A stretch of DNA of 63,043 bases from a virus (Duplodnaviria; Caudoviricetes), in the IMG/VR virus record IMGVR_UViG_3300036945_000174, positions 1-63,043 of that record. One strand, written 5' to 3'. Position numbers and translations under genes: made by a program. Under the pieces are notes generated by a model that was not told the origin of the DNA, did no database searches, and saw only the letters and a program-made list of their open reading frames with translations. Each line of letters opens with the position of its first letter. Position 1 is the stretch's first letter. Below, piece by piece: positions 8,575 to 15,659 of this stretch.

Positions 8575-8961
8575 CTAGTATAGACTCATAGTTAATAATT
8601 CTCTAATTATTTCATTGTCTGGATTAATAGCGTATCCAAGAGCAAATGATGCCGATACTTCGAACGACACGCCTGGTTTTTGCTTTACCCAGAACTCCTT
8701 TACGAATTCAGAGTCAATAATTTCATTTGTTTTCTCGTCTCTTGTTACTGTGAATAGCGCTGCTTTTACTTGTTTCATTTTATTTGATGTTACTGTTAGT
8801 TTTTGATTTGGAAATGGATCTCCCATTCCGACGTTTGATGATGTATTATATATTAGTCCTTGATTTGTAAATCCAGTACCTGTACTTACTCCTAAGTAAC
8901 TACTACTATTTGTATCCTTAAACGTAAGTGTTCCTGATGAATTCATTCTTGCTTGTTCCAT
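8575..8961 (-). CDS. Hypothetical protein between groEL and groES
   Basis: 128-aa ORF abutting both neighbours. Confidence 0.6.
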   Translation of the reverse strand: MEQARMNSSGTLTFKDTNSSSYLGVSTGTGFTNQGLIYNTSSNVGMGDPFPNQKLTVTSNKMKQVKAALFTVTRDEKTNEIIDSEFVKEFWVKQKPGVSFEVSASFALGYAINPDNEIIRELLTMSLY

Positions 8962-10565
8962 TATGCTCTTGCCATTGTTATAATTGCGTTAGTACTAAGC
9001 ACTGTTGTAGATACCGATACGGCATTCTTCAGCGCGTTCTTTGTTACCTTTAATGGATCAATTACACCCATCTTGTACATGTCTCCGGTTGTCATGTTCT
9101 TGATATCGAATCCAACAGTATATCCTTGTAGTCCATCCATCAGCTCGTACCCGTCTAGTCCGGCGTTCTCGAATATCTGTAGTAGTGGTGCCTGAATAGC
9201 TCTTGCCACAATATGCATGGCCGCGTACTGCTCTGCGCTGATGTCCTCGATCATATCGTCTGCATCTGCAATGATCGCGTACGACTCATTAAACAGTGCT
9301 ACTCCGCCACCAGGTAGGATGCCCTCCTCCAGTGCAGATCGTACCGCGCATACCGCATCGTCTACCCTGTCCTTGCGTTCCTTTTGTTCTAGGTCAGAGT
9401 TTCCTCCGACGTGAATCACAGCTATTCCACCTGTCAAGCTGGCAATACGCTCCTTGATAAAGTCCTGGTCGTTCTTTTTATTACTCAAGTCGTGAGCCTG
9501 CCATAACTGAGTTACTCTTTCTTCTACCACGTCAGTGGTCGACTCTGATTTTATAATTGAAGCTGATTCTCTTCCAACTATTACACGCTTAGCCTTACCA
9601 AGTGATTCGATTGTCATAAGACTTAAATCATCTCCAGTCTGCTCTGAGAAGTACTTGGCACCTACTGCCAACGCAATATCGTTCATCAGTTCGTTTCTCT
9701 TATAACCAAACTCAGGTGGTGGGATGTTACAGAACTTAAGTCCTTTCTGTACTACGTTGATTGCCAGTGTGTTAATTACGTTTTGACTGCACGGCCCGAT
9801 GATCAATAGTTTCTTGCCAGTCTGGATCACGTCTCTAAGCACGTTCTCGATTGATAGGATGTTGTTGATCTCTTGATCCGTAACTAGAATGTGTACGTCC
9901 TCTAGTATGCACTCGTCCTTTCTGTGGTCGTTCACGAATAGTTGTGACGTGTATCCTCTGTTTACCTTGATACCGTTAGTGTACTCGCAGTAGGTCTCAG
10001 CCGTCTGTGAGTTCTCAACCGTTACGATACCGGTCTTACCCACCTTGTCGTACGCTTCAGAGATCAAATTACCAATCTCAGAATCGTTATTAGCAGATAT
10101 CGACGCCACGTTGTTTAACGTCTTTCCTGTTACTTTCTTTGAGCGCTTCTCTAGTCGGTTGATTAGCTTGTTTGTTGTGTCGTTGATCTGTCTAATCACC
10201 TCTGTCGTGTTCAGATTACTGGTGATCATGTCCTGACCGTGCTTTACCAGCGCCTCTGTTAGTACGATGGCCGTTGTGGTACCGTCACCAGCGCTTGTCG
10301 CGGTGCGGTCTGCCGCTTCCTTCATCATCTTTACCGCTAGGTTCTCTACTGGATCTAGTAGATCAATTGATTTAGCGACTGTTACACCGTCCTTAGTTAC
10401 TGTAATACCGTGCGTGTGGTTGATTGACTCGATCAGTACGGTCTTTCCGCGCGGTCCTAGTGTGCTCTTTACTGCCTTGGCGATCGTGGTGATGCCGTTG
10501 ATTAATTTTTCTCGTCCTTCTTGTTCAAAGTCTAGAACTTTTGGACTGTATCCGAAGTTTGTCAT
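8961..10565 (-). CDS. groEL: Chaperonin GroEL homologue
   Basis: TLGPRG, VTKDGVTVAK, GDGTTTA, GILPGGGVAL, GVIDPLKVTK; no C-terminal GGM tail. Confidence 0.97.
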   Translation of the reverse strand: MTNFGYSPKVLDFEQEGREKLINGITTIAKAVKSTLGPRGKTVLIESINHTHGITVTKDGVTVAKSIDLLDPVENLAVKMMKEAADRTATSAGDGTTTAIVLTEALVKHGQDMITSNLNTTEVIRQINDTTNKLINRLEKRSKKVTGKTLNNVASISANNDSEIGNLISEAYDKVGKTGIVTVENSQTAETYCEYTNGIKVNRGYTSQLFVNDHRKDECILEDVHILVTDQEINNILSIENVLRDVIQTGKKLLIIGPCSQNVINTLAINVVQKGLKFCNIPPPEFGYKRNELMNDIALAVGAKYFSEQTGDDLSLMTIESLGKAKRVIVGRESASIIKSESTTDVVEERVTQLWQAHDLSNKKNDQDFIKERIASLTGGIAVIHVGGNSDLEQKERKDRVDDAVCAVRSALEEGILPGGGVALFNESYAIIADADDMIEDISAEQYAAMHIVARAIQAPLLQIFENAGLDGYELMDGLQGYTVGFDIKNMTTGDMYKMGVIDPLKVTKNALKNAVSVSTTVLSTNAIITMARA

Positions 10566-11762: not shown

Positions 11763-11925
11763 GCATCGGCGCCTGGGACATCCCGAGCCTAAACCGATGC
11801 CTTAGCGCCTTTTTGAACGACGTCGAGAAAGCTAACTCTATCTCCTATACGATGAGAACAACCTGAGCGCACTGATCTTACGGGAAGTGTGTTGTGTTTT
11901 ACGATCCACTCGCGAGCGTGGCTGT
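11763..11925 (-). ncRNA. Candidate structured ncRNA (unit C of the array)
   Basis: GC-richer non-coding segment; GCATCGG/CCGATGC stem 11763-11800 plus shorter stems. Confidence 0.5.
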
Positions 11926-11927
11926 TG

Positions 11928-12014
11928 ATACCGGTGAGAGACTCGAACTCTCATCTACTTCTAAAAGTAATGCTTACCCTAGGCAGTATTTATTCCTACT
12001 TACACCAACCGGTA
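11928..12014 (-). tRNA. tRNA-like element with long variable arm and non-canonical anticodon arm
   Basis: Acceptor TACCGGT/ACCGGTA, D-stem GTGT/ATAC, variable arm TACTT/AAGTA, T-arm GAGAG-TTCGAGT-CTCTC. Anticodon arm TGCCTAGGGTAAGCA is 15 nt with no canonical 7-nt loop. Confidence 0.7.
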
Positions 12015-12015
12015 C

Positions 12016-12165
12016 TATTCCACTAAGGCAGCGTCATCCTTAGTCGCACTTCGATAGTTGCTTATAACATGAGCTTCATGTACTATCACGTTTCGAGTTC
12101 TTTATCGACCACCTCTGAAGGTCACTCCGCACGGCGTGTTTTTCCGTTTAACCGCGTAACGCTTA
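12016..12165 (-). ncRNA. Candidate structured ncRNA (unit B)
   Basis: Stems ACTAAGG/CCTTAGT, GATAGT/ACTATC enclosing ACATGA/TCATGT, and GACC/GGTC; no ORF. Confidence 0.55.
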
Positions 12166-12167
12166 TT

Positions 12168-12247
12168 GTGTCAGGGCCGGACTCGAACCGGATAAGCAAC
12201 CAGTATTTCATGGATTCGGGACCATCCCTCATTACACCCACCTGACC
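12168..12247 (-). ncRNA. tRNA-like element (acceptor and T-arm intact, interior non-canonical)
   Basis: GTCAGG/CCTGAC acceptor-like stem, CCGG-TTCGAGT-CCGG T-arm; no standard D or anticodon arm. Confidence 0.6.
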
Positions 12248-12249
12248 TT

Positions 12250-12398
12250 ACGGTTAGTTGTTTAGTAGCATCTGCACCGCTAAGCAGATTTTATTACCGA
12301 TGAACAACTACGTCGAGAGTTTAATATTCACTGCAACTCACAAGCGTTCCCTAACATCAGAGACCAATCTTACAAGTTTAACGTGCATGTAAGAGCAC
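12250..12398 (-). ncRNA. Candidate structured ncRNA (unit A) starting with an H-type pseudoknot
   Basis: GTGC/GCAC crossing TCTTACA/TGTAAGA (12368-12398); TAGTTGTT/AACAACTA enclosing ATCTGC/GCAGAT (12255-12310). Confidence 0.55.
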
Positions 12399-13515: not shown

Positions 13516-13800
13516 ACAGGCCTTCCCGCGTCATGAGAATATTTGCGTGTGAATTGGTATTTCGCGTAGATATACAGAGACTTGAAATAGCCACCGCCCC
13601 AACCTTCCCCACACAAATCCAATAGTAAGCAAATACAATACGTAAAACACTGATAATCAACACATTAAACTAACTTCGTTGTTTTTTGTTGAATAATTGT
13701 CAATATCAGGTCCAATTCATTGCATTATTCTCATCAAAATAATCAATTCACTGAGAATATCATAAAAATGCACTAAAAACAAAACTTTTTTTAATTTTTA

Positions 13801-13832
13801 TTTGGTACATTGAAATTGTCGCCATATGTTTG
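13801..13832 (+). promoter_or_regulatory. Early promoter with full Bacteroidota consensus
   Basis: TTTG (13801-13804), 20-nt spacer, TATGTTTG (13825-13832); predicted start near 13837. Confidence 0.8.
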
Positions 13833-13836
13833 CGGT

Positions 13837-14045
13837 GTTCAAATGAACGAGTAGAGAACTTCACTACTAATCAAATCGGTTGAGACCACAGACCTAAGAT
13901 GTGGCGGAGGTGTAGATGTCACCATAACCATCCTACTGAACAAACAGGTGTTATAAGCGGAGTAGTTGCCGTGAAGAGCGAAATGTAAACAGCATCAAAT
14001 AGATGTTATAAAGATTATAAGGCGGGAGTTTTATAATTGGTTTAG
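13837..14045 (+). ncRNA. Structured 5' leader RNA upstream of hammerhead 1
   Basis: Successive stems including GGTTG/TAACC enclosing CCACA/TGTGG and GGTG/CACC, and ATTATAAGGC-GGGA-GTTTTATAAT; no ORF. Confidence 0.55.
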
Positions 14046-14100
14046 AAACGTATATGGATGTGTTATCCATACTGATGAGCTACAGAATAGCGAAACGTTT
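14046..14100 (+). ncRNA. Hammerhead ribozyme, type III (cleavage after GUA, A14052)
   Basis: AAACGT-A, stem I TATGGAT/ATCCATA, core CTGATGA, stem II GCTA/TAGC, GAA, stem III ACGTTT; all core bases and pairs present. Confidence 0.93.
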
Positions 14101-14113
14101 AAACTTAATTATT

Positions 14114-14332
14114 ATGTTAGTAGAAATTTATGTAAATGGAGATTGGAACACGTCATTAGAAGACAACAATGAAGTTGTGATTTATGATAAAGGAACGGTT
14201 TATAAATTAGACGATAGTCTTTATGATTCTTTTATTGATAAATTAGAAGATGAAGGATTTGATTGTTATTTCTGTCCTGAACTATTTAAACATCCTGAAT
14301 GGAATGGAATTATAAAGTATGAGGTTAACTGA
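14114..14332 (+). CDS. Acidic 72-aa early protein bracketed by two hammerheads
   Basis: ATG 14114 after an AT-rich leader (the track start at 14054 lies inside ribozyme stem I); the TGA stop is part of the second CTGATGA core. Confidence 0.7.
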   Translation: MLVEIYVNGDWNTSLEDNNEVVIYDKGTVYKLDDSLYDSFIDKLEDEGFDCYFCPELFKHPEWNGIIKYEVN

Positions 14333-14372
14333 TGAGTCTTAAGTAGACGAAACTCCTTCGGGAGTCTTAACC
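14323..14372 (+). ncRNA. Hammerhead ribozyme, type I (cleavage after GUC, C14366)
   Basis: Stem I GGTTAA/TTAACC, core CTGATGA, stem II GTCT/AGAC, GAA, stem III ACTCC-TTCG-GGAGT, then C. Confidence 0.95.
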
Positions 14373-14390
14373 AATTTAATTATTTATATC

Positions 14391-14633
14391 ATGGAAAAAT
14401 TTGCAAGAAAATGTGACATCACAAACAAAGGAATGAACGAAGGATGGTACTGCGAGTGCTTAGATACTTACATTAAAAACGAAGCAGACGCAATCAATTT
14501 TGTAAACGAACATACGTATGCTGATTTAGAATGTGCATACAATGATGAGTTTATATACTACACAGAGTGGGATGCTGAAGAAGACGAAGATGAATGGTAC
14601 GACGAAAATGGTAAACTATACGAAAATGAATAA
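14391..14633 (+). CDS. Very acidic 80-aa early protein
   Basis: About 24 D/E vs 6 K/R, aromatic-rich. Confidence 0.75.
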   Translation: MEKFARKCDITNKGMNEGWYCECLDTYIKNEADAINFVNEHTYADLECAYNDEFIYYTEWDAEEDEDEWYDENGKLYENE

Positions 14634-14811
14634 GATATACTACCACATTTTAGAGCATGGCTCTTACGGACAAATCGGATGGCAAGGATATTACAAAACA
14701 GAAAGCGAAGCGAAGCAAATAATTAATACACTAAGCGATATGTTTCCGAATCTATACTTTGAAATATTTCTATCCACAAGTAAAAACGAACCACCAATAA
14801 CAACATTATGA
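14626..14811 (+). CDS. Small early protein (start revised to 14626)
   Basis: MNKIYYHILEHGSYGQIGW...; start overlaps the previous gene end. Confidence 0.6.
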   Translation: MNKIYYHILEHGSYGQIGWQGYYKTESEAKQIINTLSDMFPNLYFEIFLSTSKNEPPITTL

Positions 14812-14889
14812 CAAAATCACAAAAACAAGGTAGACTATACCTACAGGTAACAATCGTATTAGCAATAGTAATCTTTAATTTATTAGCAT

Positions 14890-15063
14890 ATGCAGTTAAC
14901 TAACAAATACATCGAGAGTCTATACCTAGACTACGTAAACAACTGGCTCACTGCCTCAAGGTGGCAGGAACACCACGGACTAAACAAGCACCAATCAAAT
15001 TATATACTTAAAAAAGGCAAATCATTATGGCGACAATCATCTCAAAAATCTACGACAAAATAA
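14890..15063 (+). CDS. Small early protein (57 aa)
   Basis: Hand-translated MQLTNKYIESLYLDYVNNWLTASRWQEHHGL... Confidence 0.6.
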   Translation: MQLTNKYIESLYLDYVNNWLTASRWQEHHGLNKHQSNYILKKGKSLWRQSSQKSTTK

Positions 15064-15117
15064 GCTACTTCCTATTCGGAGACAACAAAAACGTAACCTA
15101 TAAACACTTTAATTAAT

Positions 15118-15441
15118 ATGAAAGCAATTTTAAACATCGGACTAAACAACAATCCATTAAGCCAGGAGGCAATCATCAACAAGTTAAGAGAAGACTATGC
15201 GCTAGACACGTACAAGTTTGCCATCGGACGATACGAAGACGAGAACGAACCAACACTAGTAGTGCACATCGAAAGTCCATACGCTAGGACTAGCCACTTC
15301 ATTAAGAAGATTGAAGAGTTGTCCACGATACTAACACAGAACTGCATCGCGGTAAGCACAGACCAGTTCGACATACTAGTGTACGCACAGAACTTCAACG
15401 GACAGAGATATAAGTTTGATAACCAATACTTTATACGATAA
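15118..15441 (+). CDS. Putative SAM lyase (T3 SAMase-like) anti-restriction protein
   Basis: GRY...EPTLVV...LTQNCIAV...LVYA parallels T3 SAMase GCY...EKTVRV...EQDCVLV...LVYA as recalled; early location. Confidence 0.55.
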   Translation: MKAILNIGLNNNPLSQEAIINKLREDYALDTYKFAIGRYEDENEPTLVVHIESPYARTSHFIKKIEELSTILTQNCIAVSTDQFDILVYAQNFNGQRYKFDNQYFIR

Positions 15442-15659
15442 TGACACTACAACTATACCGCAGACAACTAAGCAACAACGCGCTTACTATCGACAATGGT
15501 GGTCAGCCGTTCTTTATCCCGAAGTCATTCGAGCATACGATAGTTAACGACTACCTAGTGATTGTAGACGTACCGAAGTGGTTCGAGGACAAGCACGAGG
15601 ACACACTAAATAGAATTAAAACAAACACCAACCTAACAATAAAAAGACTGACATCATAA
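15441..15659 (+). CDS. Hypothetical early protein
   Basis: 72 aa; FIPKS...VPKWF. Confidence 0.65.
   Translation: MTLQLYRRQLSNNALTIDNGGQPFFIPKSFEHTIVNDYLVIVDVPKWFEDKHEDTLNRIKTNTNLTIKRLTS

What the first reader, a model, noticed from the sequence alone, without database searches (positions are those of the whole stretch)
14046..14372. Two hammerhead ribozymes excise the first early gene as a discrete, circularisable 314-nt RNA
Seen: a complete type III hammerhead (cut after GUA at 14052) and a complete type I hammerhead (cut after GUC at 14366) on the same strand, downstream of a consensus promoter, with a single 72-codon ORF between them. Established: hammerhead cleavage leaves 5'-OH and 2',3'-cyclic phosphate ends, which RtcB-type ligases join. 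Ribozymes near small phage genes are known, but their role is largely open. Inference: the earliest transcript cuts itself into leader, ORF cassette (14053-14366) and downstream polycistron, and the cassette could become a stable circular mRNA. By eye the circle junction (GGAGUC/UAUGGAU) restores neither ribozyme's missing stem well, so a circle should resist re-cleavage.
Basis: partly seen in the sequence, partly recalled or inferred. Interest (0 to 1): 0.92.

Follow-up and report, generated by a model that had tools for sequence, protein, structure and literature searches.

The report
Hammerhead ribozymes punctuating a phage operon
Two self-cutting hammerhead RNAs really do bracket the first small gene of this phage's early operon, but this is a known kind of phage message-cutting design, and nothing supports the idea that the excised piece becomes a circle.

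Summary
Both hammerheads are real. A type III hammerhead sits at 14046-14100 (cut after A14052). A type I hammerhead sits at 14323-14372 (cut after C14366). Both have complete catalytic cores, and one 72-codon ORF lies between them.

No Rfam family reaches its curated score. Comparative evidence is strong instead.
- The type III motif recurs in 68 cultured Flavobacterium phage (Elemovirus) records, 25 IMG/VR contigs and 40 metagenome contigs. 13 of its 17 base pairs show compensatory changes.
- The type I motif recurs in at least 120 viral stretches.

The layout is regular. The type III follows a structured leader and lies about 13 nt before the first ATG. Type I units overlap or abut the upstream stop codon and cut a median 22 nt before the next ATG. 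The genes between ribozymes vary.

The best reading is transcript punctuation into linear units. Perreault et al. 2011 already described this kind of arrangement. They also raised the circle idea and could not detect circles.

The circle idea has no support here. About half of the relatives lack the second ribozyme. The gene's homologue sits in a four-gene segment elsewhere. The ends do not pair. The phage has no RtcB. RNA contigs show no back-joint. This scan holds 613 earlier notes matching a hammerhead/phage-operon word search, on other DNA.

The parts
13801..13832 (+). Bacteroidota-type promoter: TTTG (13801-13804), a 20-nt spacer, then TATGTTTG (13825-13832). The predicted transcript start is about 13838.
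   Evidence: Sequence. A loosened form of the -7 box, T[ATC]nn[TC]TTG, is found upstream in 13 of 15 related leaders examined, and the promoter columns align. The consensus itself is recalled from memory. The sigma-70 scan finds nothing here.
13838..14052 (+). ORF-free structured leader of about 215 nt. HH-A would release it with a 2',3'-cyclic phosphate end.
   Evidence: Conserved blocks and covarying hairpins in 12 related leaders. There is no Rfam match. The fold is no more stable than shuffles (z -0.92).
14046..14100 (+). HH-A, a type III hammerhead. It cuts between A14052 and U14053, and the ribozyme body stays on the downstream RNA.
   Evidence: Family covariation: 13 of 17 pairs compensatory and 96.4% of cells paired, with 0 of 500 shuffles as high on paired cells or covariation score.
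14114..14332 (+). 72-codon ORF, an acidic small protein with no known family. Its TGA stop (14330-14332) lies in the HH-B core.
   Evidence: No Pfam or PHROG family and no Atlas lead. Its homologue is the first ORF after HH-A in L024 (45% identity).
14323..14372 (+). HH-B, a type I hammerhead. It cuts between C14366 and U14367, and the ribozyme body stays on the upstream RNA.
   Evidence: My own covariance model scores it 67.3 bits, E 9e-16. Family covariation: 10 of 16 pairs compensatory. An identical 50-nt copy in L023 sits behind an unrelated ORF.
14367..14390 (+). 24-nt A/U-rich, G-poor 5' UTR created by the HH-B cut. It starts UUAACCAA and precedes the ATG of the next gene (14391-14633, 80 aa).
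   Evidence: In the family the next ATG lies a median 22 nt after the cut, quartiles 20-24, in 161 of 168 units. Composition profile.

Best explanation
Both elements are active cis-cleaving hammerheads. They act as punctuation marks in the first transcript made from the rightward early/replication operon of a 63-kb phage whose host is probably a member of the Bacteroidota.

HH-A (type III) cuts 7 nt into its own sequence. The ~215-nt structured leader therefore leaves with an almost clean 3' end. The first cistron keeps the folded ribozyme body as a structured 5' end with a 5'-OH, 13 nt ahead of its ATG.

HH-B (type I) starts inside the last codons of the 72-codon ORF and cuts 34 nt after its stop codon. 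The first cistron therefore ends in two stable hairpins carrying a 2',3'-cyclic phosphate. The next cistron starts with a 24-nt unstructured A/U-rich leader bearing a 5'-OH.

The result is a set of separate linear RNAs whose stability and translation are uncoupled from one another: the leader RNA, a 314-nt single-gene message for a variable accessory gene, and the conserved downstream polycistron.

Shown here: ribozyme anatomy, family-wide covariation and positional regularity. Inferred: cleavage in vivo, and its effects on stability and translation.
For: Canonical cores and NUH triplets.
- Both window copies have complete cores.
- In the type III family the only core variation is at N7.
- In the 27 HH-A-bearing loci fetched, plus the window, H17 is A, C or U.
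- In the 40 metagenome loci H17 is A or C in 39. The single G comes from one off-register row, L178.

Covariation.
- Type III: 23 distinct sequences, found with a pattern that did not specify stem pairing. 96.4% of cells are paired and 13 of 17 pairs are compensatory. The covariation score is 0.505 against 0.196 in shuffles, with 0 of 500 shuffles as high. Slid controls score 0.094 or less.
- Type I: 19 sequences, with 10 of 16 pairs compensatory. This set was chosen by a pairing descriptor, so the 100% pairing is by construction.

Recurrence.
- 68 Elemovirus records, 25 IMG/VR loci and 40 metagenome loci carry the type III.
- 15 of 25 IMG/VR loci have 1-3 type I units downstream of the type III on the same strand.

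Position.
- The stop codon of the longest upstream ORF lies inside the type I ribozyme in 71 of 154 units. It lies within 8 nt before the ribozyme in 59 more.
- The next ATG lies a median 22 nt after the cut in 161 of 168 units.
- The ATG lies a median 13 nt after the type III 3' end in 32 of 32 units.
- The 3' product starts UUAACCAA and then runs G-poor.

Cargo and context.
- Cargo between ribozymes is variable, while conserved genes follow the last ribozyme.
- The operon carries an exonuclease, a primase-helicase and a helicase. The opposite block carries terminase and portal.
- Literature: clustered phage hammerheads flanking non-constant genes cleave in vitro and, for one set, in E. coli (Perreault 2011, passages).
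Against: - No cleavage assay and no read-level RNA data exist for this phage or its relatives. The only RNA data were assembled contigs of relatives, which cannot show ends.
- Neither ribozyme reaches an Rfam gathering score.
- The stability and translation consequences are pure inference.
- A ribosome terminating at 14330-14332 would cover stem II of HH-B, so cleavage may be conditional rather than constitutive.
- About half of the relatives manage without any type I unit, so HH-B-type cuts are dispensable.
Confidence: 0.7

Rival explanations
1. After both cuts, the 314-nt cassette is ligated by a host RtcB-type ligase, or by ribozyme reversal, into a stable circular mRNA that resists re-cleavage.
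For: The ends would carry the right chemistry (5'-OH and 2',3'-cyclic phosphate); this is established hammerhead chemistry. A first cassette of about 285-340 nt recurs in many relatives. In relatives with two successive type I units that share stem I GGUUAA/UUAACC, the two ends of the intervening piece could rebuild a nicked hammerhead. This holds for 5 of the 8 such pieces I listed.
Against: - In the window the two ends belong to different ribozyme types, and each is locked in its own hairpin. They do not pair.
- By my reading, the joined form would give HH-A only two Watson-Crick pairs, a mismatch and three G-U pairs in stem III.
- The phage has no RtcB.
- HH-A occurs without any type I in 10 of 25 IMG/VR loci and in 20 of 40 metagenome loci.
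- The homologous gene in L024 lies in a four-ORF segment.
- No joint that goes back was seen in the four runs laid. Two of these were RNA runs, and all were contigs only.
- Perreault 2011 could not detect circular or spliced products in other phage clusters.
Confidence: 0.08
2. Conditional, translation-gated cleavage. The stop codon of the upstream gene lies inside the type I ribozyme, so ribosome traffic controls whether the ribozyme can fold. Cutting would then report the translation state of the host or act as a timer.
For: The stop codon lies inside the ribozyme in 71 of 154 type I units and within 8 nt before it in 59 more. In the window the TGA is part of CUGAUGA. Earlier notes of this scan raise the same idea on this and on other DNA.
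Against: The tight packing may simply reflect a compact genome. In 63 of 154 units the stop codon lies before the ribozyme. There is no alternative, mutually exclusive conserved fold, although I did not search for one systematically. HH-A has no upstream ORF at all.
Confidence: 0.1
3. The conserved ribozyme sequences serve mainly, or additionally, as DNA-level boundaries at which accessory gene cassettes are exchanged by recombination between related phages. RNA cleavage would be secondary.
For: An identical 50-nt type I unit follows unrelated ORFs in the window and in L023. Singleton ORFs cluster between ribozymes, while conserved genes follow them. Stem I is GGUUAA/UUAACC in 15 of 19 distinct type I units, although stems II and III vary freely.
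Against: Compensatory changes in stems II and III and an intact core show selection on the RNA fold, not only on DNA identity. Fifty nucleotides is a short target for homologous recombination. The conservation of stem I is also explained by its built-in stop codons (TAA, and TGA with the core) and by ribozyme constraints.
Confidence: 0.1
4. Chance motifs or decayed, inactive ribozymes.
For: Neither element reaches an Rfam gathering score. A loose core pattern is not enriched in the window.
Against: The descriptor finds none in 20 shuffles. Cores are complete. Covariation is strong, and the elements recur in hundreds of contigs at fixed positions relative to ORFs.
Confidence: 0.02

Closest known systems
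Clustered hammerhead ribozymes flanking single genes or short gene blocks in prophage and phage genomes (Perreault et al. 2011, PMC3088659; passages read)
   Same: Several hammerheads lie on one strand of a phage operon and bracket one or a few small genes whose identity is not constant. The proposed role is processing of a polycistronic RNA into gene-length messages. The same paper raised the circular or spliced product idea.
   Different: - The lineage is different: uncultivated relatives of the Flavobacterium phage genus Elemovirus.
- The order is fixed here, with a type III unit at the leader junction and type I units at ORF ends.
- Spacing is very regular, with the stop codon in or at the ribozyme and the ATG about 22 nt after the cut.
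- I could not see the paper's supplementary alignments, so some of these sequences may already be listed there.
HHphage of haloviruses HF1/HF2 (as described in Perreault et al. 2011; passage read)
   Same: A hammerhead sits 13 nt upstream of the start codon of the first ORF of an early polycistronic transcript. The mapped 5' end lies within 3 nt of the cut site.
   Different: That one is an archaeal virus with a variant core that needs high salt. Here the core is canonical, the host is probably bacterial, and a second ribozyme follows the first ORF.
Rfam Hammerhead_3 (RF00008) and RAGATH-1 hammerhead (RF03152)
   Same: The same three-way junction and the same core. HH-A aligns end to end with RF00008. 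HH-B and the Elemovirus type I unit align with RF03152.
   Different: All scores are below the gathering scores: 40.6 against 48.5, and 21 and 27.8 against 56.3. The loops (GUGUU, CAGAA) and stem I (GGUUAA) define their own subclasses.
Retrozymes and viroid-like hammerhead circular RNAs (de la Pena et al. 2020, PMC7761336, passages read; PMC7229834, abstract seen in the listing)
   Same: Two hammerhead cuts release a unit with a 5'-OH and a 2',3'-cyclic phosphate, ends that a cellular ligase can join.
   Different: As I recall (not from the passages read), those units are bounded by copies of the same ribozyme, so the ends rebuild it, and they circularise demonstrably. Here the two ribozymes are of different topology, the ends do not pair, and there is no evidence for a circle.
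Type I hammerheads in intergenic UTRs of RNA viruses that create the 5' end of a downstream ORF's message (PMC13725137; passages read)
   Same: A type I hammerhead fills a short intergenic region and cuts a few nucleotides upstream of the next start codon.
   Different: Those are eukaryotic RNA viruses, and the cut lies 7 nt before the ATG in the example read. Here it is a DNA phage and the distance is about 22 nt.
Synthetic ribozyme insulators of the RiboJ type (recalled from memory, not read here)
   Same: HH-A works like one. A type III hammerhead between promoter and first gene removes the leader, so the gene has a fixed 5' end.
   Different: That is an engineered part. Here the element is natural and conserved, and the removed leader is itself conserved and structured.

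Membership tests
Hammerhead ribozyme, type III (HH-A) | Three-way junction open at stem III, with stems I and II closed by loops | tested here: met
   Sequence, descriptor, minimum-free-energy fold and the RF00008 alignment covering model positions 1-54.
Hammerhead ribozyme, type III (HH-A) | Core C3 U4 G5 A6 N7 G8 A9, G12 A13 A14, pairs A15.1-U16.1 and G10.1-C11.1, and cleavage triplet NUH | tested here: met
   CUGAUGA, GAA and GUA are present. In the 27 HH-A-bearing loci fetched, plus the window, only N7 varies and H17 is A, C or U. In 39 of the 40 metagenome loci H17 is A or C; the one G comes from an off-register row, L178.
Hammerhead ribozyme, type III (HH-A) | Base pairs supported by compensatory change in relatives | tested here: met
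   13 of 17 pairs are compensatory; 0 of 500 shuffles reach the observed covariation score.
Hammerhead ribozyme, type III (HH-A) | Rfam RF00008 gathering score of 48.5 bits | tested here: not met
   40.6 bits. There is no hit at gathering thresholds.
Hammerhead ribozyme, type I (HH-B) | Junction open at stem I, a complete core, and a GUC triplet | tested here: met
   My own model scores it 67.3 bits. 10 of 16 pairs are compensatory, in a set chosen by a pairing descriptor.
Hammerhead ribozyme, type I (HH-B) | A curated Rfam family at its gathering score | tested here: not met
   The best scores are 21.4 bits (RF00008, mis-permuted) and 21 bits (RF03152, gathering score 56.3).
Hammerhead ribozymes (both) | Site-specific self-cleavage giving a 5'-OH and a 2',3'-cyclic phosphate | not testable with these tools
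   Only assembled RNA contigs of relatives were available, and they cannot show ends.
Clustered phage hammerheads flanking genes (Perreault 2011) | Two or more hammerheads on one strand bracket single genes or short blocks in a phage genome, with cargo not constant among relatives | tested here: met
   The window has one ORF between two units. Relatives have 1-6 ORFs of different families between units.
Hammerhead-derived circular RNAs (retrozyme or viroid-like) | The ends of the excised unit pair so as to rebuild a hammerhead or a ligase substrate helix | tested here: not met
   The ends lie in separate hairpins. Neither ribozyme's missing strand is restored, by my reading.
Hammerhead-derived circular RNAs (retrozyme or viroid-like) | Back-junction sequences or exonuclease-resistant RNA | tested here: inconclusive
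   No backward joint in the 4 runs laid; these were contigs, and the RNA ones come from relatives. I did not run a junction-pattern search, because joined sequence may not be typed.
Hammerhead-derived circular RNAs (retrozyme or viroid-like) | A ligase (RtcB type) is available | tested here: inconclusive
   None in the phage record. The host genome is unknown. The control genome Bacteroides thetaiotaomicron has one.

The most novel reading that the evidence does not exclude
Ribozyme-bounded cassettes may be the unit of accessory-gene exchange in this phage group. The near-invariant stem I (GGUUAA/UUAACC) of the type I units would make every 5' product compatible with every upstream 3' product. 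Hammerhead-catalysed or RtcB ligation could then circularise or re-join cassettes at the RNA level in relatives that carry arrays of two to five type I units. The same 50-nt units could act as swap points at the DNA level. The window's own type III to type I cassette would be the least ligation-prone member of such a system.
Probability: 0.1. Interest if true: 0.75.

Novelty: new member of a known kind. Interest (0 to 1): 0.4.

Why it matters
What phage hammerheads are for has been an open question since 2011, and recent reviews still call their roles elusive.

This family offers an unusually clean system to test it.
- It has cultured members: Elemovirus phages on Flavobacterium sp. BAL314, 68 records.
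- Its layout is strict: leader, type III unit, then variable cassettes each closed by a type I unit whose cut lies about 22 nt before the next start codon.
- Hundreds of natural variants are available for comparison.

If the punctuation model holds, it shows how phages that probably infect Bacteroidota give each early accessory gene its own message ends without protein nucleases. The fixed choice of topology would also be explained. A type III unit gives the leader a clean 3' end, and a type I unit gives the next gene a clean, unstructured 5' UTR.

It does not open a new category. The circular-mRNA claim that drove the original high score is unsupported.

Tried and rejected
- Rfam at gathering thresholds over the whole window found only a tRNA-like hit and no hammerhead. 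A loose core pattern was not enriched. Neither result argues against the ribozymes once structure and relatives are considered.
- Public runs: 2 DNA runs hold the whole stretch and may be its source. Two metatranscriptome runs hold 5-6% of the sampled words.
- Laying 4 runs gave contigs only. Relatives' RNA contigs cover the 3' part of HH-A and 14806-15600. There was no table of molecule ends and no backward joint. This says nothing for or against cleavage or circles.
- The metagenome scan with the type III pattern was meant to see whether any contig starts at the cut site. None of the 40 does; the nearest match starts at base 63. Most are presumably DNA assemblies, so this is uninformative.
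- RtcB family search in the phage: none. The host is unknown, so ligase availability stays open.
- Pfam, PHROGs and the ESM Atlas gave nothing for the 72-aa ORF.
- Three-frame stop idea. I considered that the type I unit is a universal three-frame stop. Columns 18-20 are a stop codon in only 97 of 154 units, so the idea holds in part only.
- Leader structure. MAFFT plus RNAalifold recovered only 7 pairs, and the single-sequence fold is not unusually stable. I did not build a model for the leader.
- Other ribozyme classes were sought in 6 loci, five of which lack a type I unit. None was found at E <= 0.05.
- Supplementary files of Perreault 2011 (alignments of all hammerheads) were closed. They may already list members of this family.
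- The ORF maps use ATG-only ORFs and an overlap filter. In the window the filter replaced the 80-aa ORF 14391-14633 with an overlapping 89-aa frame, so these maps are approximate.
- Duplicate rows (L002, L009, L012, L016, L020) were dropped before the count. L028, a copy of the window, was left out of all counts.
- The IMG/VR and metagenome sets may share contigs, so they should not be added together.

Full report
**What is there.** The window is a complete 63,043-nt virus record. At 14046-14100 the sequence reads as a textbook type III hammerhead:
- a stem III 5' strand ending in GUA (A14052);
- a 7-bp stem I hairpin with loop GUGUU;
- CUGAUGA;
- a 4-bp stem II closed by G-C with loop CAGAA;
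- GAA, and then the stem III 3' strand.

At 14323-14372 there is a type I hammerhead:
- stem I GGUUAA/UUAACC;
- CUGAUGA and a 4-bp stem II;
- GAA;
- a 5-bp stem III with a UUCG loop;
- GUC ending at 14366.

The piece between the cuts is 314 nt. It holds one ORF, 14114-14332 (72 codons), whose TGA is part of the second core.

**Is it more than chance?**
- Rfam gives HH-A 40.6 bits with RF00008 (gathering score 48.5; E 2.5e-7 on 701 nt). HH-B gets only about 21 bits.
- Nothing is reported at gathering thresholds, so neither is a curated-threshold member.
- My structural descriptor finds exactly these two in the window and none in 20 shuffles.
- Both short segments fold into the hammerhead junction as their minimum-free-energy structure.

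**Relatives of the type III unit.** A BLAST search of 13700-14700 found one conserved 67-nt stretch, the type III ribozyme itself. It occurs in 68 records of Flavobacterium phage Elemovirus. There it sits in the same place, at the divergent junction just before the first rightward gene.

A pattern that fixed only the loops and core found 25 IMG/VR contigs and 40 metagenome contigs.
- In 23 distinct sequences, 96.4% of cells are paired.
- 13 of 17 pairs carry compensatory changes.
- 0 of 500 shuffles reach the observed covariation score, and slid controls collapse.
- The core varies only at N7.
- The residue before the cut is A, C or U in the first set of loci and the window. In the 40 metagenome loci it is A or C in 39. 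The single G comes from one off-register row, L178.

**Relatives of the type I unit.**
- 19 distinct sequences show 10 of 16 compensatory pairs. That set was chosen by a pairing descriptor, so its 100% pairing is by construction.
- A covariance model built from these sequences scores the window copy at 67.3 bits. It also finds the Elemovirus copies that the descriptor missed.
Arrays reach five units within 1.7 kb.

**Architecture.** The type III unit always follows an ORF-free leader of about 110-235 nt. That leader lies behind a TAnnTTTG box; the motif is recalled from memory, and a loosened form of it is found upstream in 13 of 15 leaders examined.
- The first ATG lies a median 13 nt after the type III ribozyme (32 of 32 units).
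- 15 of 25 IMG/VR loci have one to three type I units downstream on the same strand. So do 20 of 40 metagenome loci.
- The first interval is often about 285-340 nt.
- In 154 unique type I units, the stop codon of the longest upstream ORF lies inside the ribozyme in 71 and within 8 nt before it in 59.
- The next ATG lies a median 22 nt after the cut, quartiles 20-24, in 161 of 168 units.
- The 3' product begins UUAACCAA and then runs A/U-rich and G-poor.

The choice of topology fits the position. A type III unit leaves its body on the downstream RNA, so the leader gets a clean 3' end. A type I unit leaves its body on the upstream RNA, so the next gene gets a short unstructured leader. That last step is my inference.

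**Cargo.**
- The ORFs between ribozymes are mostly singletons. Conserved genes follow the last ribozyme (approximate, ATG-only ORFs).
- The window's type I unit is identical over 50 nt to that of L023, which follows an unrelated ORF.
- The 72-aa protein has no family. It does have a 45%-identical homologue as the first ORF after the type III unit in L024, where three more ORFs precede the next type I unit.
- The 80-aa protein after HH-B has a homologue in L021 that lies before that locus's type I unit. Ribozyme positions therefore shift relative to homologous genes.
- The operon continues into an exonuclease, a primase-helicase and a helicase. The opposite block encodes terminase, portal and virion proteins. 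'Early' is thus an inference from gene order.

**The circle idea.** I found nothing in its favour beyond the end chemistry.
- The two ends of the 314-nt RNA each sit in their own hairpin and do not pair.
- The joined form would restore neither ribozyme well, by my reading.
- The phage has no RtcB.
- The type III unit stands alone in 10 of 25 IMG/VR loci, five of them with more than 5 kb downstream and no other known ribozyme. It also stands alone in 6 of 10 metagenome loci with at least 3 kb downstream.
- RNA data were limited to contigs of relatives in two metatranscriptome runs. These show that relatives' sequence around the ribozyme and downstream genes is present in RNA libraries. They show no ends and no backward joints.
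- In relatives with successive type I units sharing stem I, the ends of an intervening piece could rebuild a nicked hammerhead. I keep that as the boldest reading still open.

**What is known.**
- Perreault et al. [quoted passage not shown] They note that the gene identities are not constant and that long phage transcripts may be processed into gene-length mRNAs.
- The same paper says spliced or circular products are possible but were not detected. It showed cleavage of three tandem sets in vitro and of one set in E. coli.
- The same paper notes a halovirus hammerhead 13 nt before the first early ORF, with a mapped 5' end at the cut.
- Reviews still call the roles open.
- A full-text search for 'hammerhead' together with 'Flavobacterium phage' returned no paper.
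- A word search of this scan's earlier notes for hammerhead, ribozyme, phage, operon and flank returned 613 findings in at least 461 genomes. All eight shown name the same paper as closest known.

**Verdict.** The ribozyme and excision parts of the interpretation are supported by comparison. The circular-mRNA part is not supported. This is a new, well-populated member of a known kind. Its main value is that it has cultured representatives and a very regular layout.

Noticed in passing
window 13838-14052; L001 2829-3007 and other leaders: The leader removed by HH-A is conserved and structured in relatives. It has a shared block (GAGACCACAG ... GUGGCGGAGGU), a covarying hairpin followed by AUAA, a GCGG...CCGUGAAG element, and an optional hairpin with a G-rich loop. 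At least two leader classes exist. None matches Rfam.
   Followed up: partly
window 15786-15926: A tRNA-like element, with acceptor stem, D arm and T arm, carries about 60 nt inserted where the anticodon loop should be. Rfam scores it 32.3 bits as tRNA. ARAGORN calls nothing.
   Followed up: partly
L029-L145 (for example L064 1258-2933): Type I hammerheads with the same stem I GGUUAA/UUAACC occur in at least 120 viral stretches, in arrays of up to five in 1.7 kb. Stems II and III vary freely. Columns 18-20 (loop II) are a stop codon in 97 of 154 units, so many units stop all three frames.
   Followed up: partly
L043, L063, L069, L074, L105, L126: Type III hammerheads, some of them of other subclasses with different loops, also sit 280-550 nt upstream of type I units. 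The order 'type III first, then type I' is therefore not tied to one subclass.
   Followed up: no
window 11800-12300: A GC-richer stretch (0.45-0.47 against about 0.33 around it) with no convincing ORF lies on the leftward side of the divergent region.
   Followed up: no
window 8961-10562 (-) and 16596-16835 (+): The phage encodes a GroEL-type chaperonin (phrog_5725, E 3.6e-133) and a small 4Fe-4S ferredoxin-like protein.
   Followed up: no
window 14054: An ATG two bases after the HH-A cut is in frame with the 72-codon ORF and would give 92 aa. The stem I sequence that provides it is not kept as AUG in many relatives, so it is probably incidental.
   Followed up: yes
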